Shown one piece after another: positions 506 to 44,972 of a DNA stretch of 45,074 nucleotides. Within the stretch, counting starts at the first letter, position 1. Each line of letters begins with the position of its first letter. Both the position numbers and the translations under genes were made by a program. The stretch lies in NCBI GenBank assembly GCA_028473545.1, contig GCA_028473545.1_4546.1. One strand, 5' to 3'. The DNA is from a phage. A model generated the notes under the pieces. It made no database searches. It had not been told where the DNA came from and worked only from the letters and a program-made list of their open reading frames with translations.

Positions 506-2770
506 ATGAGCTTAATTAAATTCGCAGTAACAAGACCCGCTAAAAAAGGCGAAAAAGCCAGGGCGGAAAACTTCGAGATGACCACTGATGAATTTTTCGA
601 ATTTATCAATGATGCGAAAGAAATCTCGTCGGTGCATATCAACAAGACAGAAGATAAAGCCGAGTATGCGCGCCGCAAGCGTAAGGCAGATGGTATCGTG
701 GCCTACACCAATGATGGATTACGCCGCAAGACCAGTGCGGTCGACCGCTCGATCCTGTTCTTTGATATCGACCGTACTGACACCCGCACTTTACGCCGCT
801 GCCGTAGGGCGTTCACCGACGCTGGCCTGGAGCACGTATTTCACACCACCACCGGCGACCGTCACCCACTGAAAGGCGGCACACGTTGCGCCCGTTTCCT
901 GGTGCTCACTGACAAGCCTGTACCGGCGGAAGACCTGGGCCGCGTCCAGTATGCGTTATTAAACCAACTGGGCCTGTCAGATGTGGACTTCGACGATTGT
1001 ACGAAAGACACCAACCGCCTTATGTACCTGCCTCACCAGCAGTCAGTCATTAAGTGCCACTACGGCAAGCGCGCCCGTGTCCGTCGTCTGCTTCGCCTGG
1101 CTGACAAGCTGGGAGTGGAGAAAGAGGAAGTACGCCGCGAACTGACCCAGGGCGACGATGGCGTGGCGGACGGGATTCTGGATTGGTGCTTCCAGGCTGG
1201 CTTTGAACCGCTGTCATCCGGTCGCGGTTATGAAGTGCCGTGCCCGAACGAGCACCTGCATAGCGGCGGCGGGTCGACGGCTATCATGGTTAAGGATGGC
1301 GAGATCCGTTTTAAATGTATGCACACCGGCAACGAGTGTTGCTCCGAACTGAACAAACACCAGCACCTGGCGTTACGTCTGATCGGTATCCCGGACCACT
1401 TGAACGTTGAACCGCACAACATGTCACGCAAGCAAATCGCCGCCATCCTTCCGGGACTGGACGACGAGGAAGTGGAATCATGCTATGAACATATTGTTGA
1501 TGCGGTCGGCGACGGCGACGAGTACGGCGAATGCACCGACGCTGACCTGGACAACGAACCTGTTGCACTATTCAGTAAGCACGACCCGATCATCGAAGGC
1601 CTGGTCAACTTCAAATCGACCTGGTATCTTGCCGGTGAATCGAACATCGGTAAGTCGTTCTATGTGCTGGGCCAGATGGCGTCCGTATCCGCCGGTATTC
1701 CGTTTGGTGGCGCGAAGGTCGTCCAGTGCCATAACTTCTATTTCGATGCGGAAGGTGGCGAAGCCTCCAACCAGCGTAAGGAAGCATTGCAGATTAAATA
1801 CGAGCACGACCTCGACAAGCTGCACATTGTCGACCTGCAATCACGCGGCTGGGATATTACCAGCAAGTCAGGCTTGCGTGAGGTTATCAGCTTTATCAAC
1901 CGCACCGCTAACGGGGAACCGGTTGGCCTGGTGGCATTCGACTCACTCAACCAGACTGTCGCGCTGCGATCCGCTGATGCCAAACCGTTCGACGAGAACA
2001 ACGCCAGCGATATGGGCGAAGTGGTCAAGGCGCTGAAGGCCATTGCGGAAAATACAGGTGGCAGTGCGGGCGTCATCCATCACCCGGCTAAGGGCGCAAA
2101 CGGCAGCAGATCGCCACGCGGGTCCGGCGCGCTTCATGGTGCTGTTGATTCTGCGTTCTTCCTGGAACAGCCGGATGACAACCAGCCAGGCCAACTCAAC
2201 CTGTATCACGAAAAATCCCGTAACGGGATTAAGCAAGCGCCGCGTGGCTTCGTCCTGCTCAAATGCAAGGTGAAGGTGGATCTCCGTAAGTCCGAGGCGT
2301 TCGAAGCCCACCAGTCCACCAGCACCGGTCCGGACTTCGGCGATGTGGTTGCCGGTTGGGACGTCAAGCCAATTGCATCCACGCCACGCGACGAGACTCT
2401 CTACCTCGTACCGGTCGCCCTGGCACCGTTCGCTGTCGAACAGGCTAAGGCCGCAGGCAAGGCCGCAGTTAAGGAAGAGAACACCGCCGGACCGCGCAAC
2501 GAAAAAGAGAAGGTGCTTTATGCGGCACTGGAAAAACTGATGGAAGATAACCCGGACCATACTGGATTCAGTAAATCGGCAATTGTCCGCCAGGCTGGAC
2601 TCGCGAAAGGCGGAACATCGACGAAGGCAATCGACGATATGGTGGAGCGCGGCGTGCTCGGGTTTTATACAGATCCACACACTGGGGCCATCTACGGGTC
2701 GTCGAATCTGGTCATCAAATCGGATATACCCATCACGCTTTCAGCGACCGATGACGACCTGAAAGATTAA
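506..2770 (+). CDS. Putative bifunctional DNA primase/helicase (primase-like N-terminus plus RecA/DnaB-like ATPase)
   Basis: 754-aa ORF; N-terminal acidic motif FFDIDR and Cys/His cluster CPNEHLHSGGG...CMHTGNEC; Walker-A-like GESNIGKS in the centre. Product inferred from motifs only. Confidence 0.6.
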   Translation: MSLIKFAVTRPAKKGEKARAENFEMTTDEFFEFINDAKEISSVHINKTEDKAEYARRKRKADGIVAYTNDGLRRKTSAVDRSILFFDIDRTDTRTLRRCRRAFTDAGLEHVFHTTTGDRHPLKGGTRCARFLVLTDKPVPAEDLGRVQYALLNQLGLSDVDFDDCTKDTNRLMYLPHQQSVIKCHYGKRARVRRLLRLADKLGVEKEEVRRELTQGDDGVADGILDWCFQAGFEPLSSGRGYEVPCPNEHLHSGGGSTAIMVKDGEIRFKCMHTGNECCSELNKHQHLALRLIGIPDHLNVEPHNMSRKQIAAILPGLDDEEVESCYEHIVDAVGDGDEYGECTDADLDNEPVALFSKHDPIIEGLVNFKSTWYLAGESNIGKSFYVLGQMASVSAGIPFGGAKVVQCHNFYFDAEGGEASNQRKEALQIKYEHDLDKLHIVDLQSRGWDITSKSGLREVISFINRTANGEPVGLVAFDSLNQTVALRSADAKPFDENNASDMGEVVKALKAIAENTGGSAGVIHHPAKGANGSRSPRGSGALHGAVDSAFFLEQPDDNQPGQLNLYHEKSRNGIKQAPRGFVLLKCKVKVDLRKSEAFEAHQSTSTGPDFGDVVAGWDVKPIASTPRDETLYLVPVALAPFAVEQAKAAGKAAVKEENTAGPRNEKEKVLYAALEKLMEDNPDHTGFSKSAIVRQAGLAKGGTSTKAIDDMVERGVLGFYTDPHTGAIYGSSNLVIKSDIPITLSATDDDLKD

Positions 2771-2852
2771 ATTTTGCGCGCATTGGTTGCCATTTTGAGT
2801 GTTTTTAGCTGGTCGCATTGGTTGCCGTGTAGTGTAAATATAGTGAATAGTT

Positions 2853-3058
2853 ATGCAGTTTTATTGCATAAAGTAAGCGGGACAAAAAGCGGGACAGACA
2901 GGGGCGGGACAAAGCGGGACAGCACCCCTGTCCCGCCCCGGATGGCGCGGCTTGCGGGGGAGCGGGACAGGCGGGACAAACCCCAGTCTTTCAGACTAGA
3001 CGGGGGTCAGTTGGCCCCCCTCGTCTGAGACTGCATAAAATCCGGGATTGCATAATGT
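2853..3058. repeat. Iteron module A: GCGGGACA octamer array, GC-rich hairpin and paired TGCATAA boxes
   Basis: Direct GCGGGACA copies at about 2877, 2889, 2904, 2914, 2962, 2971 and an inverted TGTCCCGC at about 2929; imperfect hairpin 2981-3033 (agacggggg..cccccctcgtct); TGCATAA pairs at 2853-2873 and 3036-3056. Noncoding. About 170 bp is near-identical to 20700-20870. Confidence 0.7.
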
Positions 3059-3185
3059 ACGGCAGCATGATGTGAATTGCTGTCGTCGACGAACTAGGCA
3101 ACCAATGCGTGTTGCAAAATGGAGAGTGAAAAATGCAGTTTGCAGTTACAGCGGATAGGGATCGGCTTTTTCATACGCGTGATTA

Positions 3186-3232
3186 ATATTGGTTGCATTC
3201 AGCCTGGCACCCTGCTAGATTGGTTGCACACC
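3186..3232 (+). promoter_or_regulatory. Promoter-like region with two ATTGGTTGCA boxes upstream of the 3250 gene
   Basis: ATTGGTTGCAT then 17-nt spacer then TAGATT, followed by a second ATTGGTTGCACACCAACAAGAGG directly before the RBS and ATG at 3250. Confidence 0.35.
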
Positions 3233-3249
3233 AACAAGAGGATTGAACA

Positions 3250-3576
3250 ATGAGAGCATTAATCTGGAATTACTCACTGGCAATGGCGGCGGCACAAGAA
3301 GCGGCGGAGTTCGCCGGTGAAGGGGCGGAAGCGGTCGAAAGACTAGCGGCAGCGTGGTCCGTTGTTCGCTTCGCGCAGCAGGCCATCGCCTGGATGCTTG
3401 AGCGCCGCTTCGACACGATGGCGGAGATCCAGCCGTTGGCGAACGCTATCCAGGACTACGCGCTTGCATTTGCCCGTGAGCGCCTGGCGTATCGCTTCGG
3501 TATTGGCGATAAGGCAGTGACAAACGTCGCCAGGATTAAAGCCCAGCGCGAACTATTCGCCCAGCTTGCGAAATAA
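3250..3576 (+). CDS. Hypothetical early protein
   Basis: 108-aa ORF with RBS aagagg; Ala-rich and helical; no recognisable motif. Confidence 0.5.
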   Translation: MRALIWNYSLAMAAAQEAAEFAGEGAEAVERLAAAWSVVRFAQQAIAWMLERRFDTMAEIQPLANAIQDYALAFARERLAYRFGIGDKAVTNVARIKAQRELFAQLAK

Positions 3577-19850: not shown

Positions 19851-19866
19851 ATTGGAGAATATTACA

Positions 19867-20229
19867 ATGGCTAAAGCACCACTCTTCACACTTGACCCTA
19901 AGCCGACCTTTAAGCTGCCGATTGAGATCCCGCGCCCTGGTGAGAACGAACCAGGCAAGATGACGTTTACCGTCCGCCACCGCCCGATCGACGAGTTTTC
20001 GCAGACCATGCAGGACACCGAACGCAAGCTATCGGAATATGACGACAATGACCCTGACGGCTTTAACGTTATGGTTGAGGCCATCATGCACGTCGCTGAA
20101 GGCTGGAATCTGCCAGACCAATTTAACGCTGAGAACGTCCGCCGTCTGGTAGTCAACTACCCCCGTGCGTTCGGCGTGTTCCACACCTCGTACTACCTCG
20201 AATTGATGGGACTACGTGAAAAAAACTAA
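19867..20229 (+). CDS. Tail assembly chaperone (lambda gpG-like)
   Basis: ATG at 19867 with ggag RBS; 120 aa; ends at a slippery A_AAA_AAC site; lies upstream of the tape measure. Confidence 0.55.
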   Translation: MAKAPLFTLDPKPTFKLPIEIPRPGENEPGKMTFTVRHRPIDEFSQTMQDTERKLSEYDDNDPDGFNVMVEAIMHVAEGWNLPDQFNAENVRRLVVNYPRAFGVFHTSYYLELMGLREKN

Positions 20230-20543
20230 TTGAGGCGGCGCGACGCTTTTATGGCCCGCCGCCACCCTCCGAAGATGTAGCCGCAAGTTTATGGGGCGCG
20301 GCCCCCGAAGATGTTTGCCCGTCTGTTGCGCTATGGCCCGACAACGCGAAGATAGTCGCAGTCTTCACAGATTGCTCTACGCAATGGCGCACCGGATTCG
20401 GTGGGGCATACGGCATCGACTACGGAGTTCTGGAGTGGCTATTTAAGATGCACGGCATCGAAAACGAGCAACGTGCATTTAAAGATATAAAGCTAATGGA
20501 ACGGATCGCGCTTGACGAAATGGCGCAACAAAACCCCGCATAA
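20220..20543 (+). other. Putative -1 programmed frameshift extension (gpGT-like fusion)
   Basis: Slippery heptamer A_AAA_AAC at 20220-20226 in the last codons of the chaperone; the -1 frame is open for about 106 codons to TAA at 20541-20543 with no early ATG. Confidence 0.45.
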
Positions 20544-20544
20544 T

Positions 20545-20942
20545 GAAGCGGGACAAGCGGGACGTCCCGATCTGTCCCGTTTTGCCCCGCCCCCGGTAAA
20601 ACTGCATATCTACTCACTTTCATTGCATAAACTCAAAGCGGGACAAGCGGGACGTCCCGATCTGTCCCGCCCCCTAAATATGCATACCTATTCAGATTTC
20701 GTGCATAAAACAAACGGGACAAAAAGCGGGACAAACAAGGGGCGGGACAAAGCGGGACAGCACCCCGTCCCCGTCAGTGCTGCCGCGGGTTTCAGCCGAT
20801 CGGGACAGGCGGGACAACTCCCAGTCTTTCAGACTAGACGGGGGTCAATGGCCCCCCTCGTCTGAGACTGAATAAGGTTTGTTTGAAATTCGCTGATACA
20901 ATGTCAATCGGCAACTGCATAAAAAAAGGGGACTGCATAATG
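20545..20942. repeat. Iteron module B: GCGGGACA array with GGGACGTCCC palindromes, GC-rich hairpin and paired TGCATAA boxes
   Basis: Two 35-bp direct repeats (20546-20580, 20637-20671); GCGGGACA copies at about 20714-20759 and 20801-20816; hairpin 20819-20870; TGCATA(A) pairs at about 20602/20624, 20680/20703 and 20916/20934, the last overlapping the tape-measure ATG. Confidence 0.7.
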
Positions 20943-29300: not shown

Positions 29301-29704
29301 CCGGTATGCAGCTTTCCGTTGTGGCGGAAGGTGGCGCGGTTAAATCTCGCATCGCGTTCAAGGCGGACCAGTTCTACATCATGCACCCGTCGAATGGGTC
29401 GCTTTCGTCCGCGTTTATCGTCGACGGCGGTCAGGTGTACATTGACACGGCGCGCATCAAGAATGCGTCCATCAACTTCGCACAGATCACGGACACGCTG
29501 CAATCCAATAACTGGAATCCGGGTAACAGCGGCTGGCGAATCGCGAAGGATGGCGGGGCGGAGTTCAACAACGTAACGGTACGCGGCAACTTGTTCGCGA
29601 CTACGGGTAATTTCGGATTCTCCGGCGGGTCCGTTACGATCGACGCAACGGGCGTCAACGTGCCATTACCTGGAGGGGGAAGGGTTAAAGTCGGGACGTG
29701 GTAA
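26354..29704 (+). CDS. Tail tip / central fiber protein (lambda gpJ-like)
   Basis: 1116 aa; ATGA overlap with the I-like gene; size and position. Confidence 0.8.
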   Translation: MTIVYDVTGHKGGGGKQHTPQETPDSLHSLAKIRILLALGEGEFEGIPDPNELRQRVYLDGTPIQNADLSDNFPGARVEFRPGTQHQDVIHGFSAVESEQTVGVKLEQGQPWVRQISDTSLDAVRIRIGIPALYTNEDNGDLVGGRIDYKIVVYTDNADPREFTFAAVGKTMSLYERDHRIELPPNVNTGWRVEVHRTTADSTSAKVVNDIQVQSITEIIDARLRYPLTALLFVEFDAKAFQNIPRVSIKCKGRKVLVPNNYDPINHTYSGDWDGTFKRAWTDNPAWHWYDICITERFGLGRRVKPQMLNRYALYQISQRCDQMVSDGNGGQEIRFKNDMYIQSQTDAWTVLKDLAAIFAGMTWWGNQMLNIVSDQPVAAVSHTITNASVIDGRFDYASGSQKTRYSTFSVAYGNPKNHYDDAIATGQRVELVRRHKINRLDITAIGCTRESEAQRRGHWALISNQLDQQVSFKVGMEGLFFIPGSVVAIADTNISGGFETRGGRLLSDPGTRTVLNTDSEITFRPGDKFLVRTDSGNVETREIASVNGNQVTLKTALDSDPIPDQPFCVDGDDIQLQKFRITDLEYDDATSTFSVRGIEYNDSKYDAVDNGARLDPGIFTQVPDGVMKGPESVTITPSQISSQGQLITNVDIVFPPVKDAVVYEIQWRRTSLQNLEVQWGNDWVNIPRTASNGAHIPNVFSGNYQARVRAIGMGEISSPWVSSEITPVEGRLGGLNAPIITNAISGLHQILWKWNHNNAATDISYTELEVRKLGETEWKFLTNVPYPGSDYAQTSLEFGIYQQLRARVADKIGNLSDWSDPFDGQVSDKVDEYMQGLDDEFLTSEDGKHFQEAIDTIPQGIYEAMLTDAQQLFNARSEYQGIYAEIKVAYNVAVDANEAVAQLETLIGTRLDDAEASIHTLQTAQSTHEQAFAQYQQTVAAKFGQQSAAIEQKMTSSFNHAGGSATYSLKAGVTYNGTYYDAGMQLSVVAEGGAVKSRIAFKADQFYIMHPSNGSLSSAFIVDGGQVYIDTARIKNASINFAQITDTLQSNNWNPGNSGWRIAKDGGAEFNNVTVRGNLFATTGNFGFSGGSVTIDATGVNVPLPGGGRVKVGTW

Positions 29705-29708
29705 ATGA

Positions 29709-29735
29709 GAAGGGGCCATCCGGCCCCTTTTTTAA
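29709..29735. terminator. Bidirectional rho-independent terminator
   Basis: ggggcc-atcc-ggcccc hairpin flanked by tttttt (plus) and T-rich sequence on the minus side; at a convergent gene junction; near-identical copy at 32533-32560. Confidence 0.5.
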
Positions 29736-31002: not shown

Positions 31003-32529
31003 ATGGCAGCGGGTACTATCTTATTAACCAATAACAGCCGGTCAGTAACGGGGACCGGTACGACGTTTTCGGCGTTCAAAGCCGGTGATTTCCTTTCTGT
31101 CGTAGTGGGGCAAGTCCCCTACACTATCGCGATTGAATCTATCGAAAGCAACACCGGGCTTACTTTGGTGCTGCCGTTTGACGGCCCAACGGCATCCGGC
31201 ATCGCATGGGATGGCGTTGCGCGCGATACCATGTCGCTGGCAACGATGGGCGTAACAGTCCAGGCACAGAAAGCACTGCGTATGCTTATTGCGGACGAGA
31301 ACAACTGGCGTGCAATCTTCGGCGACGCTGAAGAAATCACAGTTACGTTACCGAACGGCACAGTGATGCAGGGTATGTCGTGGGGCTACCTGTCGCAGCT
31401 AATGAAGCAGATCGACCCGGTGGAAATGCTCAACCTGCAACAACAAGCCGCCGCATCTGAGGTCGCAGCGAAAGGATACCGCGACGAGGCCGAAGGCTTC
31501 AAGAACGATACTAATACCATCAAGACGCAAACCAACCAGATTAAGACTGATACGCAGGCGATCCACGACGCCACCAATACGATCAAGACGCAAACCGACC
31601 AGATTAAGACCGATACGCAGGCCATCAAGGACCAGACCAACCAGATTAAGACTGACACTGGCGTTATTCGAGATCAGGCCAACACGGCGAAGACTGACGC
31701 ACAAGCGGCCCGAGATGCAGCGCAGGGATACCGCGACGAAGCCGAAGGCTTCAAAAACTCAATCGACCCCACTAAGTTCATGCAGAAGTCGCAGAACCTG
31801 GCGGACGTTGCCGACAAGTACACCGCGCGCAACATTCTTGGGGTGGGCGATGACAGTTACGTTAAACACGCAACATTACGCCTGAACGGTGGCGAATCAT
31901 TAACATTCAATGAAGTGGAGGCTAACGGCTTAATTCTATCAAACGCCTCGATGGGAATCGACAATTGGGTAGGCTTCACCATGCATAAATGGTACGCCGA
32001 CTGGACACGCGCAGGAATTGTGCGTGCGGGTGACTCCCACTTGTCAGACTACCGCATCCACGTGTGGAAGAATGGGGATACTGAGGCGCTATTCCGCTTC
32101 CTGCCGGACGGGCGTCTGATTCAGGGTAACGGCGGCAACCCATCGTCGGCGGAGTTTCAGAAAGCACCGCTATCAGACCGGGACGTGAAGAAAGAAATCC
32201 AATACACGGACGGCGCGGAAAGTTACAACCGAGTACGGCAATGGCTACCAGCAATGTTTAAGTATAAGGAGTCGGACGTACAGCGTTACGGCCTTATCGC
32301 GCAGGACCTGGCCATGATTGACCCGGAATATGTGCACTTGCTGCCAGGACACGGAATCTACGAGGACGTTGTTGTTGGCGTGGACGAGGAAGGGAACGAG
32401 ATTGTCGAGCAAAAGGAGATCGGATACACCGACGATGTGCTGTCGCTTGACAGTAACGTGCTGTTGATGGATCTATGCGCCGCCTTCGTTCACCTGTTGC
32501 AGAAAGTAGAAAAGCTGGAAGGTAAGTAA
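31003..32529 (+). CDS. Tail fiber protein with C-terminal S74-type intramolecular chaperone domain
   Basis: 508 aa; internal repeats TNTIKTQTNQIKTDTQAI; C-terminal segment GLIAQDLAMIDPEYVH resembles the endosialidase-chaperone domain. Confidence 0.65.
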   Translation: MAAGTILLTNNSRSVTGTGTTFSAFKAGDFLSVVVGQVPYTIAIESIESNTGLTLVLPFDGPTASGIAWDGVARDTMSLATMGVTVQAQKALRMLIADENNWRAIFGDAEEITVTLPNGTVMQGMSWGYLSQLMKQIDPVEMLNLQQQAAASEVAAKGYRDEAEGFKNDTNTIKTQTNQIKTDTQAIHDATNTIKTQTDQIKTDTQAIKDQTNQIKTDTGVIRDQANTAKTDAQAARDAAQGYRDEAEGFKNSIDPTKFMQKSQNLADVADKYTARNILGVGDDSYVKHATLRLNGGESLTFNEVEANGLILSNASMGIDNWVGFTMHKWYADWTRAGIVRAGDSHLSDYRIHVWKNGDTEALFRFLPDGRLIQGNGGNPSSAEFQKAPLSDRDVKKEIQYTDGAESYNRVRQWLPAMFKYKESDVQRYGLIAQDLAMIDPEYVHLLPGHGIYEDVVVGVDEEGNEIVEQKEIGYTDDVLSLDSNVLLMDLCAAFVHLLQKVEKLEGK

Positions 32530-32532
32530 TGA

Positions 32533-32560
32533 GAAGGGGCCATACGGCCCCTTTTTTAGT
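32533..32560. terminator. Bidirectional rho-independent terminator
   Basis: gagaaggggccatacggccccttttttag; near-identical to the terminator at 29709-29735. Confidence 0.5.
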
Positions 32561-35438: not shown

Positions 35439-35518
35439 CGTGTTGTCTCCAGGTATTAAAAAGGGCGTCCAACCGGACACCCTTAAGATAATGCAACCAA
35501 TCTAATTACGCAACCAAT

Positions 35519-41422: not shown

Positions 41423-42211
41423 TTAACGGCGGCGACGTTTACGTGGTGCTTCGTCTTCGTCGTCTTCGTCCTCATCTTCGTCATCGCGGGACTTACGACG
41501 CTTGCGAGGCTTCTCATCTTCCTCGTCTTCGTCATCGTCGTCGCGGCGCTTGGACTTCTTGGACTTGCGCGGCTTGTCATCTTCGTCATCGTCATCACGA
41601 CGTTTGGACTTCTTAGCCTTGCGCGGTGCTTCATCTTCGTCATCGTCGCCCAGGTCGTCATCGGAACAAGAAGACCCGCCGCCACCGAAGGAATCACCAT
41701 CATCACGGAAGCGAAGACCCATCAAACCGGCACCGAGTCCTTTACCGTTGGTGTTGTTCCACGCCCAAATATCCAGGGACACGTTGCAATAACAACCGGA
41801 ATAGATTTCCTGGCCTTCGATCTCGTCGCCGTCGATGGTCAGACCCTGTTCGGTCTGCTTCTCGCCCAGTGACGTTTGGATGTTAGGCTGTTTGAACGAT
41901 TTGGCGTTGATGTACAGCATGCCTTCAAACTCTTCGGTTACTTCGTCGCGCTCATCACCGTCGCGAACTGCGCATTCCTTAGAATCCTGGGCGTAGTGGC
42001 GGTCCATCCACTTATCGGCGTTCTTCTCGGATTTCAGCTTGTCGGTGAGCACTGCGCGCGCTGCCGCTTCCACTTTGTCCACCTGCGGATCTTCTTTATC
42101 AAGAAGAATCACGGCACGGTATGCCGGTTTTTGTCCATCCTGTTTAGGGGTATCACGTTCCCAAATTTTCAGGAAGCATACGCGCACGTTTTTCAGGTTG
42201 ACTTTAGCCAT
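41423..42211 (-). CDS. ssDNA-binding protein, T7 gp2.5-like, with repetitive charged C-terminal tail
   Basis: Start at MAKVNLKNVRVCF with gagga RBS; C-terminal tandem repeats DDDDED..PRK.KKSKRR ending RKRRRR; adjacent to the Cas4-like nuclease and polymerase. Confidence 0.5.
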   Translation of the reverse strand: MAKVNLKNVRVCFLKIWERDTPKQDGQKPAYRAVILLDKEDPQVDKVEAAARAVLTDKLKSEKNADKWMDRHYAQDSKECAVRDGDERDEVTEEFEGMLYINAKSFKQPNIQTSLGEKQTEQGLTIDGDEIEGQEIYSGCYCNVSLDIWAWNNTNGKGLGAGLMGLRFRDDGDSFGGGGSSCSDDDLGDDDEDEAPRKAKKSKRRDDDDEDDKPRKSKKSKRRDDDDEDEEDEKPRKRRKSRDDEDEDEDDEDEAPRKRRRR

Positions 42212-44453: not shown

Positions 44454-44972
44454 TTAATCTTCTAATTCGAAATACGTTTCTACGATTTCTTTTAAATCTT
44501 TGTGGAAGTCTTCGACGTCGTCATCTTCCAGCTTGGCGACGGATTTAATTTCGAACGCTTCCAGCAGATCATCAAATTCGTCGTTTGCGTCGTCGTCATC
44601 TCCGCCCGCAATAATAGCGGCATACTGTTTGATTTCGTCGCGCATTTCTTTAAGCGGATCGGCATCTTTCTTGCCTTTGCCTTTCGCCGGTGCTTTCTTA
44701 GATTTCGCCGGGGCTTCTTCCTCGTCCGCGTCGTCGTCTTCTTCTACGGCTTCTTTCTTAGCCTTGCCCTTTGCGGGCGCTTTTTTGGTCTTTGCCGGGG
44801 CTTCGTCTTCAGCATCGTCATCTTCGGCTACTTCTTCTTTCGCCTTGCCCTTTGCCGGGGCTTTCTTCGCTTCCTGTTTACCAACGGCAGCGCCAGCAGT
44901 TTCATAATGCTTAGCGATGGTTTCCAGTGCTACAACGCCGCGAGTGATCAGGTTTACGATTTGCTCAAACAT
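44454..44972 (-). CDS. Highly charged tandem-repeat protein (alternating K/A/P-rich basic and D/E-rich acidic blocks)
   Basis: 172 aa; three copies of APAK.KKAPAKGKAKKE followed by acidic runs; ggaga RBS; first gene downstream of the leftward early promoter. Confidence 0.55.
   Translation of the reverse strand: MFEQIVNLITRGVVALETIAKHYETAGAAVGKQEAKKAPAKGKAKEEVAEDDDAEDEAPAKTKKAPAKGKAKKEAVEEDDDADEEEAPAKSKKAPAKGKGKKDADPLKEMRDEIKQYAAIIAGGDDDDANDEFDDLLEAFEIKSVAKLEDDDVEDFHKDLKEIVETYFELED

What the first reader, a model, noticed from the sequence alone, without database searches (positions are those of the whole stretch)
2853..3058. Iteron module A: GCGGGACA octamer array, GC-rich hairpin and flanking TGCATAA pairs in a 480-bp noncoding gap
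The gap after the primase/helicase gene holds at least 6 direct and 1 inverted GCGGGACA copies within about 100 bp, then an imperfect GC-rich hairpin (2981-3033) that lacks a T-tract, bracketed by paired TGCA(T/G)..TGCATAA boxes. The module ends TGCATAATG followed by a 6-codon ORF. About 170 bp is near-identical to a second copy 17.7 kb away (20700-20870). Iteron density next to the replication gene is compatible with an origin, a regulator binding array, or a packaging/partition site. The 8-mer does not match any operator I can name.
Basis: seen in the sequence. Interest (0 to 1): 0.65.

Follow-up and report, generated by a model that had tools for sequence, protein, structure and literature searches.

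The report
Likely phage replication origin module
Seven copies of an 8-base word plus a long hairpin, right after the phage's helicase-primase gene, are most likely where that protein binds to start DNA replication: an ordinary kind of origin, unusual only in having a conserved second copy inside the tail-gene block.

Summary
GCGGGACA occurs 16 times in the window against 2.2 expected, and 14 copies lie in two noncoding gaps. The window is a Dhillonvirus (HK578-like coliphage); all 159 related phage records carry the module at two or more places. Relatives whose helicase-primase is 44-68% identical keep the same layout directly after that gene: 3-4 direct repeats, one inverted, a spacer, 1-3 direct repeats, then a 19-22 bp imperfect palindrome. 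The repeat word differs by lineage (GCGGGACA, GGGGGAGA, GGGATAA, ACTCGCAA, TGCGGAA). The protein is an AEP primase, a RepA-like helicase and a C-terminal winged helix. The winged helix diverges faster than the rest, and the start of its third helix tracks the repeat word. I read module A as an iteron origin served by a self-loading primase-helicase, as in SaPI Rep/ori, P4 alpha, pRN1 ORF904 and RSF1010 oriV. Locus B is a Dhillonvirus-specific, selectively maintained duplicate: a second origin or an enhancer. Binding and origin firing are inferred, not shown. Terminator, packaging-site, G-quadruplex and known-RNA readings fail specific tests. The 6-codon ORF and the downstream TGCATAA pair are not conserved. 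The Sodalis phage SO-1 GenBank record already flags both repeat regions. This is a new member of a known kind, of moderate interest.

The parts
506..2770 (+). Helicase-primase gene (754 aa): N-terminal AEP-fold primase (aa 1-345), RepA-like AAA_25 helicase core (aa 357-531), C-terminal winged helix and acidic tail. It is the proposed initiator that binds the repeats.
2498..2725 (+). Coding region of the C-terminal winged-helix domain (about aa 665-740), the proposed iteron reader. The acidic tail ...DDDLKD follows.
2837..2876 (.). AT-rich stretch (77.5% A+T) just upstream of the repeats. It contains GAATAGTTATGCAG (2845-2858) and the inverted pair TTATGCA (2851-2857) / TGCATAA (2865-2871). Candidate unwinding element or site for a lineage-independent partner.
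   Evidence: It is the most AT-rich 40-mer of the gap. GAATAGTTATGCAG is kept, often twice 21 bp apart, in relatives whose repeat word differs (L069, L074, L075). (G)TGCATAAA is invariant in 24 Dhillonvirus copies.
2877..2921 (+). Left iteron set: four direct GCGGGACA (2877-2884, 2889-2896, 2904-2911, 2914-2921).
   Evidence: The heptamer columns have a mean majority fraction of 0.984 in 24 copies, against 0.84 for the spacers between them.
2929..2936 (-). Single inverted GCGGGACA.
   Evidence: An inverted repeat at this relative position is also present in L070, L069, L074 and L075. It is less conserved (0.72) and has decayed in most B copies.
2937..2961 (.). GC-rich variable spacer between the two iteron sets.
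   Evidence: The central region around it (2922-2962, inverted repeat excluded) scores 0.80 in the 24 copies. The equivalent spacer is 75-80% A+T in L074/L075.
2962..2978 (+). Right iteron set: two direct GCGGGACA (2962-2969, 2971-2978).
2984..3033 (.). Imperfect palindrome of about 19 bp (CAGTCT..CAGAC..GGGGGT / loop / GCCCCC..GTCTG.AGACTG). Proposed to extrude as a hairpin at the melted origin, for helicase assembly or as a priming signal.
   Evidence: DNA fold -12.6 kcal/mol, z -3.05. Stems 0.982 conserved and loop 0.80. A 19-22 bp palindrome of unrelated sequence follows the repeats in every lineage. It is equally stable on both strands, with few G-T pairs.
3032..3055 (+). Downstream TGCATAA pair (3032-3038, 3049-3055). 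Not a conserved part of the module.
   Evidence: It reads GAATAA in most B copies and TTGCAAAAT in most A copies.
3059..3066 (+). ACGGCAGC, one copy of a genome-wide over-represented octamer, 26 bp after the palindrome. Possible priming site (speculative).
   Evidence: 32 copies in the window against 2.7 expected. A CGGCA(G/A)C lies after the post-iteron palindrome in each relative, mostly within about 100 bp.
20546..20579 (+). Locus B mini-module 1: AAGCGGGACAAGCGGGACGTCCCGATCTGTCCCG (two direct and two inverted repeats), followed by TGCATA..TGCATAA (20604-20630).
   Evidence: family D11.
20636..20669 (+). Locus B mini-module 2, identical to mini-module 1, followed by ATGCATA..TGCATAA (20681-20708).
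   Evidence: family D11, 100% identity. The number of mini-modules varies from 1 to 2 among Dhillonviruses.
20715..20816 (+). Locus B full module: six direct (G)CGGGACA (20715, 20727, 20743, 20753, 20801, 20810). Paralogue of 2877-2978.
20822..20870 (.). Locus B palindrome, paralogue of 2984-3033. The stems are identical and the loop differs.

Best explanation
Module A (about 2837-3066) is the replication origin used by the helicase-primase encoded immediately upstream.

Shown:
- The protein combines an AEP-fold primase, a RepA-like helicase and a C-terminal winged helix in one chain.
- Seven CGGGACA repeats start 107 bp after its stop codon and are followed by a 19-bp imperfect palindrome.
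- Repeats and palindrome stems are almost invariant across the genus, while spacers and loop drift.
- Relatives keep the same layout with different repeat words.
- The winged helix is the fastest-changing part of the protein.

Inferred:
- Winged-helix domains of several subunits bind the repeats.
- This assembles the helicase on the DNA and melts the neighbouring AT-rich stretch and/or extrudes the palindrome.
- The helicase loads itself.
- The primase domain starts the first primers there, and the phage's own DNA polymerase extends them.

Locus B (20546-20870) is a genus-specific duplicate of the same binding array and palindrome, kept by selection. It acts either as a second origin or as a distant enhancer that the same protein bridges to module A.
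For: 1. Enrichment and confinement: 16 copies against 2.15 expected, 14 of them in two gaps.
2. Position: in ten lineages of this helicase-primase family (44-100% identity) a noncoding gap of about 300-650 bp directly follows the gene, in conserved synteny; in one lineage (L076) a reverse-strand gene sits within that space and the repeats are sparse. In nine of the ten lineages the gap holds a repeat array plus a long palindrome.
3. Same layout, different word: window 4 forward + 1 reverse + 2 forward CGGGACA; L070 the same; L069 GGGGAGA 2+3 forward, 1 reverse, 1 forward; L074/L075 GGGATA 3+1+3. L071/L073 use TCGCAA and L077 uses TGCGGAA.
4. The reader domain co-varies. L074 against L069 is 86% identical in the N-terminal part, 81% in the core and 57% in the winged helix. 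The start of helix 3 is GGT(S/N)T(K/T) with CGGGACA, GGDRYK with GGGGAGA, GG(N/K)RRPA with GGGAT(A/C)A, and S.(N/H)Y.K with TCGCAA. The recognition helix of the small upstream HTH protein is nearly the same in L074 and L069, although their repeats differ.
5. Fold: winged helix and AEP primase with RSF1010 RepB' among the top hits.
6. Selection: repeats 0.984 and stems 0.982 against spacers 0.84 and loop 0.80 in 24 copies. Single-base indels between copies rule out coding.
7. Unrelated viral contigs L008, L029 and L047 carry CGGGACA arrays immediately 3' of AAA_25 helicase genes.
8. Experimentally studied analogues have this anatomy: SaPI Rep (PMC9371898), pRN1 ORF904 and phage BIP-1 (PMC4234260), and RSF1010 (PMC8567376).
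Against: - There is no direct evidence of binding or of replication initiation at either locus.
- GC skew follows gene orientation and does not mark an origin.
- The space between the two repeat sets is GC-rich here, not AT-rich as in SaPI origins.
- The small HTH protein encoded upstream also diverges between lineages, so it is not excluded as the binder.
- Co-variation rests on about six specificity classes, which is too few for statistics.
- A second copy inside the tail operon is not what a simple origin model predicts.
- The Jerseyvirus relative has no gap and no clear array after its helicase-primase gene; the Kagunavirus relative also has no downstream gap, and only short repeats (CGAAACGA x4, CTCACTC x5) in its upstream gap.
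Confidence: 0.65

Rival explanations
1. The module is a regulatory array. The repeats would be operators for a phage transcription regulator, for example the small HTH protein encoded upstream of the helicase-primase. They would sit at the boundary between the replication operon and the lysis/structural genes. The palindrome would act as a terminator, an RNA 3'-end stabiliser or an RNase III site.
For: The gap separates two functional gene blocks, and promoter-associated TTGGTTGC pairs flank the module. The small HTH protein also diverges between lineages. A stem of about 20 bp is long enough for RNase III (inference). Locus B lies just upstream of the tape measure start.
Against: The scan found no sigma-70 promoter or intrinsic terminator in the module, and no T-run follows the hairpin. 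The genome already has a separate motif (TTGGTTGC, 20 copies) spread over promoter regions that suits a regulator better, whereas the CGGGACA arrays occur at one or two loci only. The palindrome is equally stable on both strands, with almost no G-U pairs, unlike RNA structures read from one strand. The HTH recognition helix is nearly unchanged between L074 and L069, whose repeats differ.
Confidence: 0.15
2. The module is a selfish or drifting repeat cassette. It would be a small duplicating noncoding element with no role for the phage, which copied itself to a second locus and is spawning mini-modules.
For: There are two loci, and locus B carries extra mini-modules whose number varies from 1 to 2 between phages. 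Records hold 2-4 matching places.
Against: Heptamers and palindrome stems are almost invariant in both loci, while spacers drift. All 159 records keep at least two places. The array keeps its position and layout next to the helicase-primase gene in lineages where every repeat has changed word in concert. That requires selection through a binding partner.
Confidence: 0.07
3. The module acts as RNA, as part of the helicase-primase 3' UTR or as a small RNA. The GGGA-rich repeats would titrate an RNA-binding protein (CsrA-like) or form a G-quadruplex, and the hairpin would be its terminal stem.
For: The + strand folds well as RNA: -91.5 kcal/mol, z -4.45. G3 tracts at 2891-2919 fit a G-quadruplex pattern, and each repeat carries a GGA (read from the sequence).
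Against: No Rfam family matches at the gathering score, and below it there are only chance-level miRNA hits. Relatives with the same layout use words without GGA or G-runs (ACTCGCAA, TGCGGAA), so neither G-quadruplex nor GGA binding is conserved. There is no strand asymmetry in the palindrome.
Confidence: 0.05
4. The module is a packaging (pac/cos) or partition site, with the repeats as small-terminase or ParB-like binding sites.
For: Repeat arrays are typical of terminase recognition sites (general knowledge). Several GenBank records happen to start near the module.
Against: In all lineages the array travels with the helicase-primase gene, several kilobases from the terminase genes (4.3-5.3 kb where the terminase is on the fetched locus). 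The one published end prediction for a Dhillonvirus (5' cos ATCTTAAGGG; PMC10673088) maps to window 35480-35489. No partition genes appear in the Bas83 gene table, and the phages are described as lytic (PMC5945888).
Confidence: 0.03

Closest known systems
SaPI (staphylococcal pathogenicity island) Rep / ori, including the fused PriRep5
   Same: A self-loading initiator-helicase carries a C-terminal winged helix that reads short repeats. Six to twelve repeats lie immediately downstream of its own gene, in both orientations. Repeat word and Rep are cognate and differ between elements, and the primase is fused in SaPI5 (PMC9371898).
   Different: SaPI Reps are described there as SF3 or MCM-type AAA+ helicases; here the core is RepA-like (Pfam AAA_25). 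SaPI repeats are 5-6 bp and flank a central AT-rich segment. Here they are 7-8 bp with a GC-rich centre, the AT-rich stretch lies outside the array, and a long palindrome follows. SaPI has one ori; this phage has two loci.
pRN1 ORF904 origin (Sulfolobus plasmid) and the similar arrangement in phage BIP-1
   Same: The replication protein combines an AEP primase, a helicase and a C-terminal winged helix. The origin lies just 3' of its gene and is a long stem-loop whose structure is conserved while its sequence is not. It is required for replication and works when moved (PMC4234260).
   Different: pRN1 has an SF3 helicase and no iterons, and its stem-loop is about 100 nt. Here the helicase is RepA-like, an iteron array precedes a palindrome of about 50 nt, and nothing has been tested.
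RSF1010 (IncQ) oriV with RepC, RepA and RepB'
   Same: Iterons are bound by an initiator, a RepA-type helicase unwinds, and the exposed hairpins (ssiA/ssiB) are recognised by an AEP-fold primase (PMC8567376, PMC4234260). The window protein matches AAA_25, weakly matches RepA 1g8y, and has a primase domain that superposes on RepB'.
   Different: RSF1010 uses three separate proteins; here there is one chain. From my own knowledge, IncQ iterons are about 20 bp. IncQ has two ssi hairpins on opposite strands; here there is one palindrome that can fold on either strand.
Satellite phage P4 alpha protein with ori and crr
   Same: A primase-helicase with a C-terminal winged helix binds repeats at the origin (PMC4234260). 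From my own knowledge, not checked here: P4 has octamer 'type I iterons' (TGTTCACC) at two separate loci, ori and crr, about 4.5 kb apart, both needed in cis. That is the nearest precedent for the A/B pair.
   Different: P4 alpha has a Toprim-type primase (PMC4234260) and, from my own knowledge, an SF3 helicase, and it is not homologous. The A-B distance is 17.7 kb. Dependence on both loci is untested.
Bacillus phage SPP1 oriL / oriR (from my own knowledge, not checked here)
   Same: It is a virulent siphovirus whose origin-binding protein recognises repeat boxes at two distant places, one beside or within the replication genes and one in the late region.
   Different: The SPP1 binder (G38P) is a separate replisome organiser, not a primase-helicase. 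The repeats and proteins are unrelated.

Membership tests
Iteron origin served by a self-loading initiator-helicase (SaPI Rep/ori type) | The helicase carries a C-terminal winged-helix DNA-binding domain | tested here: met
Iteron origin served by a self-loading initiator-helicase (SaPI Rep/ori type) | Six to twelve short repeats immediately downstream of the initiator gene | tested here: met
   Seven GCGGGACA from 107 bp after the stop codon. The same position holds in nine related lineages.
Iteron origin served by a self-loading initiator-helicase (SaPI Rep/ori type) | Repeats flank a central AT-rich segment and point in opposite directions | tested here: not met
   Six of the seven repeats are direct. 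The centre (2937-2961) is GC-rich and the AT-rich stretch (2837-2876) lies outside the array. The centre is AT-rich only in relatives L074/L075.
Iteron origin served by a self-loading initiator-helicase (SaPI Rep/ori type) | Helicase of the SF3 / MCM AAA+ class, homologous to SaPI Reps | tested here: not met
   Only Pfam AAA_25 (RepA-like) matches, at 1e-19. PDB sequence search gives only a weak RepA hit.
Iteron origin served by a self-loading initiator-helicase (SaPI Rep/ori type) | Cognate specificity: repeat word and reader domain change together between elements | tested here: met
   About six repeat words match six helix-3 variants, and the WH is the fastest-diverging domain. This is correlative only.
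Iteron origin served by a self-loading initiator-helicase (SaPI Rep/ori type) | Specific binding of the protein to the repeats, and replication starting there | not testable with these tools
   Needs EMSA or footprinting, and marker-frequency or plasmid-ori assays.
pRN1-type origin (AEP primase + helicase + WH protein with a stem-loop 3' of its gene) | N-terminal AEP (prim-pol) domain | tested here: met
pRN1-type origin (AEP primase + helicase + WH protein with a stem-loop 3' of its gene) | Long stem-loop 3' of the gene, with structure conserved and sequence not | tested here: met
   Palindromes of 19-22 bp and unrelated sequence occur in all lineages. Within the genus the stems are invariant and the loop is free.
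pRN1-type origin (AEP primase + helicase + WH protein with a stem-loop 3' of its gene) | SF3 helicase domain and no iterons | tested here: not met
   The helicase is AAA_25 and an iteron array is present.
IncQ (RSF1010) oriV | RepA-type helicase and RepB'-type primase | tested here: met
IncQ (RSF1010) oriV | Two ssi hairpins on opposite strands, recognised by the primase | tested here: inconclusive
   There is one palindrome per module, which folds equally well on either strand. Recognition by the primase is untested.
P4 ori/crr two-site origin | The same octamer repeats at two separate loci in cis | tested here: met
   Loci A and B are 17.7 kb apart, and all 159 Dhillonvirus records hold at least two places.
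P4 ori/crr two-site origin | Both loci required for replication; protein homologous to P4 alpha | not testable with these tools
   The requirement needs genetics. No sequence similarity to a D5/SF3 helicase was seen.
Intrinsic (Rho-independent) terminator | GC-rich stem-loop followed by a T-run | tested here: not met
   No site was called in the module, and the sequence after the stem is GCATAAAATCC.
Terminase recognition site (pac/cos) | Located in or beside the terminase genes, or at mapped virion ends | tested here: not met
   The module lies about 5.1 kb upstream of terS. The published cos 10-mer maps to 35480-35489 (PMC10673088).
Known RNA families (Rfam 15) | Match at the gathering score | tested here: not met
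   There are no matches in the window and only E 0.4-0.7 miRNA noise in 2700-3300.

The most novel reading that the evidence does not exclude
Dhillonviruses and their Salmonella-phage and metagenomic relatives would use a so far uncharacterised one-protein initiator: an AEP primase, a RepA-like helicase and a winged helix, that is, the three IncQ replication functions in a single chain. Its origin combines iterons with an ssi-like palindrome. Its repeat specificity has been rewired at least six times by changes at the start of winged-helix helix 3, which gives a readable protein-DNA code. In Dhillonvirus the origin has been duplicated into the tail operon and the two copies work as a pair (ori plus a crr-like partner, or dual origins). 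The genome-wide polar octamer ACGGCARC would be the recognition word of this primase for lagging-strand priming.
Probability: 0.25. Interest if true: 0.6.

Novelty: new member of a known kind. Interest (0 to 1): 0.4.

Why it matters
In my searches of the held paper library I found no mapped origin for Dhillonvirus, a common genus in coliphage collections and phage-therapy isolates. A defined origin and its reader domain would help with phage engineering: replication-competent minimal constructs, and predicting incompatibility or cross-talk between co-infecting relatives. They would also help interpret defence systems that sense phage replication. The set of lineages with the same layout but different repeat words is a natural experiment on how a winged helix changes DNA specificity. 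Practically, several GenBank records annotate small 'hypothetical proteins' across both modules (for example Bas83_0056 and Bas83_0018 to Bas83_0021). These are probably not genes.

Tried and rejected
- Rfam, at gathering score over the whole window and by E-value over 2700-3300, found nothing real.
- Sigma-70 promoter and terminator scans found nothing in either module.
- The GC-skew profile follows gene orientation only and gives no origin signal.
- Literature searches for Dhillonvirus/HK578/SO-1/SSL-2009a with origin or repeats, and for the octamer itself, found no description of these modules. The SO-1 GenBank note on 'region A/B ... possible ...' is cut off by the tool, and I could not read its end.
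- The plasmid collection searched with the helicase-primase gave only a 44-kb record that looks like a phage, plus distant RepA hits.
- BLAST and phmmer of the winged-helix domain against ORFs of unrelated contigs with CGGGACA arrays found no shared reader domain. The shared word was imposed by my search pattern, so I draw no specificity conclusion from it.
- TGCATAA boxes as DnaA boxes: their reverse complements match TTATNCACA at only 7-8 of 9 positions (hand comparison). Not pursued.
- G-quadruplex and CsrA-sponge ideas were rejected because relatives use words without G-runs or GGA.
- A strand switch of ACGGCARC at A or B, as an independent origin marker, was not seen.
- The Jerseyvirus relative has no gap or clear array after its helicase-primase gene, and the Kagunavirus relative has no downstream gap and only short repeats upstream, so the layout is not universal in the wider family.

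Full report
**What is there.** The window is a Dhillonvirus (HK578-like virulent coliphage). A 601-bp query around the finding matches 159 phage records at 80-97% identity. The 206-bp module alone matches the same 159 records at 353 places, always at least two per record. The gene map, read by comparison with the annotated phage Bas83, runs: helicase-primase (window 506-2770), a 479-bp gap holding the finding, small genes, lysis genes, terminase, head and tail genes. A second gap lies between the tail chaperone and the tape measure gene (ATG at 20940). The early genes on the minus strand follow.

- GCGGGACA occurs 16 times against 2.15 expected, and no shuffle reaches that count. Seven copies lie at 2877-2978 (six direct, one inverted) and seven at 20548-20816. 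Only two are in coding DNA.
- The 7-mer core CGGGACA gives 17 of its 20 copies in the two gaps.
- The hairpin at 2984-3033 is a 19-bp imperfect palindrome (DNA fold -12.6 kcal/mol, z -3.05). No T-run follows it, and the scans find no promoter or terminator in either module.
- Module A and the main part of locus B align at about 84% over about 196 bp.
- Locus B also holds two identical 34-bp mini-modules with two direct and two inverted repeats each.

**Pattern of conservation.** I aligned 24 copies (11 A-type, 13 B-type) from different Dhillonviruses and one 68%-identity relative.
- The six direct heptamers have a mean majority fraction of 0.984 and the palindrome stems 0.982.
- The spacers score 0.84, the central region 0.80 and the loop 0.80.
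- Single-base indels between copies rule out the small ORFs that several records annotate across the modules.
- The 'TGCATAATG plus 6-codon ORF' and the downstream TGCATAA are not conserved. Only (G)TGCATAAA just before the first repeat is invariant.

This is the signature of short protein-binding words plus a palindrome whose stems matter and whose loop does not.

**The decisive comparison.**
- Homologues of the helicase-primase at 44-68% identity come from Salmonella phage vB_STM-ZS and from metagenomic phage contigs. They all keep the order small HTH gene, helicase-primase, then a noncoding gap of about 300-650 bp before the next genes; in L076 a reverse-strand gene sits within that space.
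- In each, the gap begins with an array of short repeats followed by a long palindrome, but the repeat word differs. It is GCGGGACA in the 68% relative, GGGGGAGA in vB_STM-ZS, GGGATAA in L074/L075, GGGATCA in L072, ACTCGCAA/TCGCAA in L071/L073 and TGCGGAA in L077. L076 is less clear.
- The layout is the same in the best-preserved cases: 3-4 direct repeats, one inverted, a spacer of 30-45 bp, 1-3 direct repeats, then the palindrome.
- For every repeat of an array to change word in concert while position and layout stay fixed, it must co-evolve with a sequence-specific binder.
- vB_STM-ZS has its array only next to the helicase-primase. That locus is therefore ancestral, and locus B is a Dhillonvirus-specific duplication.

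**Who reads the repeats.**
- Residues 357-531 match Pfam AAA_25, the RepA-like helicase family.
- Between closely related lineages that differ in repeat word, the winged helix is the fastest-diverging part. L074 against L069 is 86% identical in the N-terminal part, 81% in the core and 57% in the winged helix.
- The first residues of helix 3 fall into classes that match the repeat words.
- The small HTH protein upstream also diverges, but its recognition helix is nearly the same in L074 and L069 although their repeats differ.
- I therefore assign the repeats to the winged helix of the helicase-primase. This is an inference, not a demonstration.

**The palindrome.** Every lineage has a 19-22 bp imperfect palindrome after the repeats, with unrelated sequence. 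It folds equally well on either strand and has almost no G-T/G-U pairs. That fits a DNA-level element better than an RNA read from one strand.

**How it most likely works.** By analogy with studied systems, the winged helices of several subunits bind the repeats. This assembles the helicase and opens the neighbouring DNA, either the 77.5% A+T stretch at 2837-2876 or the palindrome. The helicase then loads itself, the AEP domain primes, and the phage's own polymerase extends. The analogues are:
- SaPI Rep proteins, whose C-terminal winged helix reads 5-6 bp repeats placed immediately after the rep gene; the primase is fused in SaPI5 (PMC9371898).
- pRN1 ORF904, an AEP primase plus helicase plus winged helix, whose essential origin is a stem-loop just 3' of its gene with structure but not sequence conserved. 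The authors also noted this arrangement in phage BIP-1 (PMC4234260).
- RSF1010, where RepC binds iterons, RepA unwinds, and RepB' primes on the exposed ssiA/ssiB hairpins (PMC8567376).
- P4 alpha, whose winged helix binds repeats at the origin (PMC4234260).

The window element combines features of these systems, with both iterons and a stem-loop, but its helicase belongs to a different class from those of SaPI, pRN1 and P4. It works like them without belonging to their families.

**Locus B.** It is kept in all 159 records, and its repeats and palindrome are as invariant as those of A. It is therefore functional. From memory, two precedents exist: P4 needs a second repeat cluster (crr) several kilobases from ori, and SPP1 has oriL and oriR. 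I cannot tell whether B is a second origin or an enhancer. Its place in front of the tape measure gene remains unexplained.

**Rivals.**
- A regulatory array with a terminator-like hairpin is the strongest rival (0.15). It fits the position between operons. It is weakened by the absence of promoter or terminator signals, by a separate and widely spread operator-like motif (TTGGTTGC, 20 copies), and by the strand-symmetric palindrome.
- A functionless duplicating cassette (0.07) is contradicted by the conservation pattern.
- An RNA role (0.05) is contradicted by relatives whose repeats lack G-runs or GGA, and by the Rfam results.
- A packaging site (0.03) is contradicted by linkage to the helicase-primase rather than to the terminase. 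The one published end prediction for the genus also maps to window 35480-35489 (PMC10673088).

**Novelty.** The Sodalis phage SO-1 GenBank record already marks both regions as repeat regions with mutual similarity and a 'possible ...' role that I could not read. I found no paper describing them. The kind of element, an iteron origin beside its primase-helicase-winged-helix initiator, is well known. The particular protein architecture and the duplicated locus are new details. I rate it a new member of a known kind, interest 0.4.

**Limits.** No binding or replication data exist. The co-variation rests on about six specificity classes. The wider family (Jerseyvirus, Kagunavirus) does not show a gap or array after the helicase-primase gene. 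The CGGGACA arrays found next to AAA_25 helicase genes in unrelated viral contigs support the general association of such arrays with these helicases. The shared word, however, was imposed by my search pattern.

Noticed in passing
whole window; e.g. 328, 2100, 3059, 4661 ... 44884 (+) and 798, 12490, 26849 ... (-): ACGGCAGC is the most over-represented 8-mer of the genome: 32 copies against 2.7 expected, with 0 of 100 shuffles reaching it. It occurs in coding and noncoding DNA, in any frame, with no extended flank beyond A before and R after. As ACGGCARC there are 53 sites, 39 on + and 14 on - (binomial P 4e-4). The + bias persists in the minus-strand gene block, and spacing is somewhat more even than random (CV 0.73 against 0.97, P about 0.01). 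It is also 10-25 times over expectation in Bas83, SO-1, Salmonella phage vB_STM-ZS and four metagenomic relatives. It could be a primase recognition word or a Chi-like polar signal.
   Followed up: partly
2783, 2818, 3098, 3189, 3220, 6402, 6425, 14952, 14966, 33821, 33833, 35493, 35510, 42267, 42283, 45042 and others: TTGGTTGC (GCAACCAA) occurs 20 times against 1.9 expected, mostly as pairs 12-35 bp apart in intergenic regions and sometimes as a palindrome (33821/33833). At least one copy overlaps a promoter-like TTGCAA-N18-TATA. Relatives carry GCNGCCAAC variants in the same kind of place. It is probably the operator of a phage regulator and is separate from the CGGGACA arrays.
   Followed up: partly
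2845-2858 (GAATAGTTATGCAG): This AT-rich box upstream of the repeats is conserved in lineages whose repeat word differs. There are two copies 21 bp apart in L069, L074 and L075, and a related GTGAATAG box in the Jerseyvirus and Kagunavirus gaps. That suggests a lineage-independent partner or an unwinding element.
   Followed up: partly
helicase-primase aa about 685-710 (window about 2558-2635): The helix 2 - turn - helix 3 stretch of the winged helix (GFSxAxIVKIAGxxGG in relatives) resembles the repeat unit of the TALE-like protein BurrH. The profile search gives E 1e-32, but each repeat scores only 5-12 bits. The fold search shows an ordinary winged helix, so this is probably local convergence.
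   Followed up: partly
2774-3028 and locus B; Bas83_0056 and Bas83_0018 to Bas83_0021 in L001: Several GenBank records annotate small hypothetical proteins across both repeat modules. Single-base indels between copies, and conservation confined to the repeat words, argue that these are not genes.
   Followed up: partly
L008 6718-6758; L029 2959-3076; L047 4131-4212; L012 4274-4791; L044 5225-5452; L058 1092-1245: Unrelated, GC-rich viral contigs carry dense CGGGACA arrays in direct and inverted orientation. In L008, L029 and L047 they lie immediately 3' of AAA_25 helicase genes, and in L012 and L044 near primase genes. The shared word was imposed by the search pattern, but the association with replication genes was not.
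   Followed up: partly
35480-35489 (-): The 10-mer ATCTTAAGGG, reported as the 5' cohesive end of Dhillonvirus EE09 by PhageTerm (PMC10673088), occurs once exactly. It sits beside a minus-strand terminator-like hairpin and a TTGGTTGC pair.
   Followed up: no
29668-29734 and 32492-32558: Two 67-nt repeats end in the same GAGAAGGGGCCATNCGGCCCCTTTTTTA hairpin. They look like intrinsic terminators reused at the ends of two tail-fibre region genes (family D5).
   Followed up: no
19852-20543: The reading frame that ends at 20543, just before locus B, has no start codon of its own. It is in the -1 frame relative to ORF 19852-20229. This looks like the usual tail-chaperone G/GT frameshift product (read; inference).
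   Followed up: no
41451-41630 and 44635-44867 (- strand genes): There are tandem repeats with 54-nt and roughly 81-87-nt periods inside minus-strand coding regions, rich in TCGTC/TTCTT (acidic and lysine-rich on the coding strand) (families D1 and D4).
   Followed up: no
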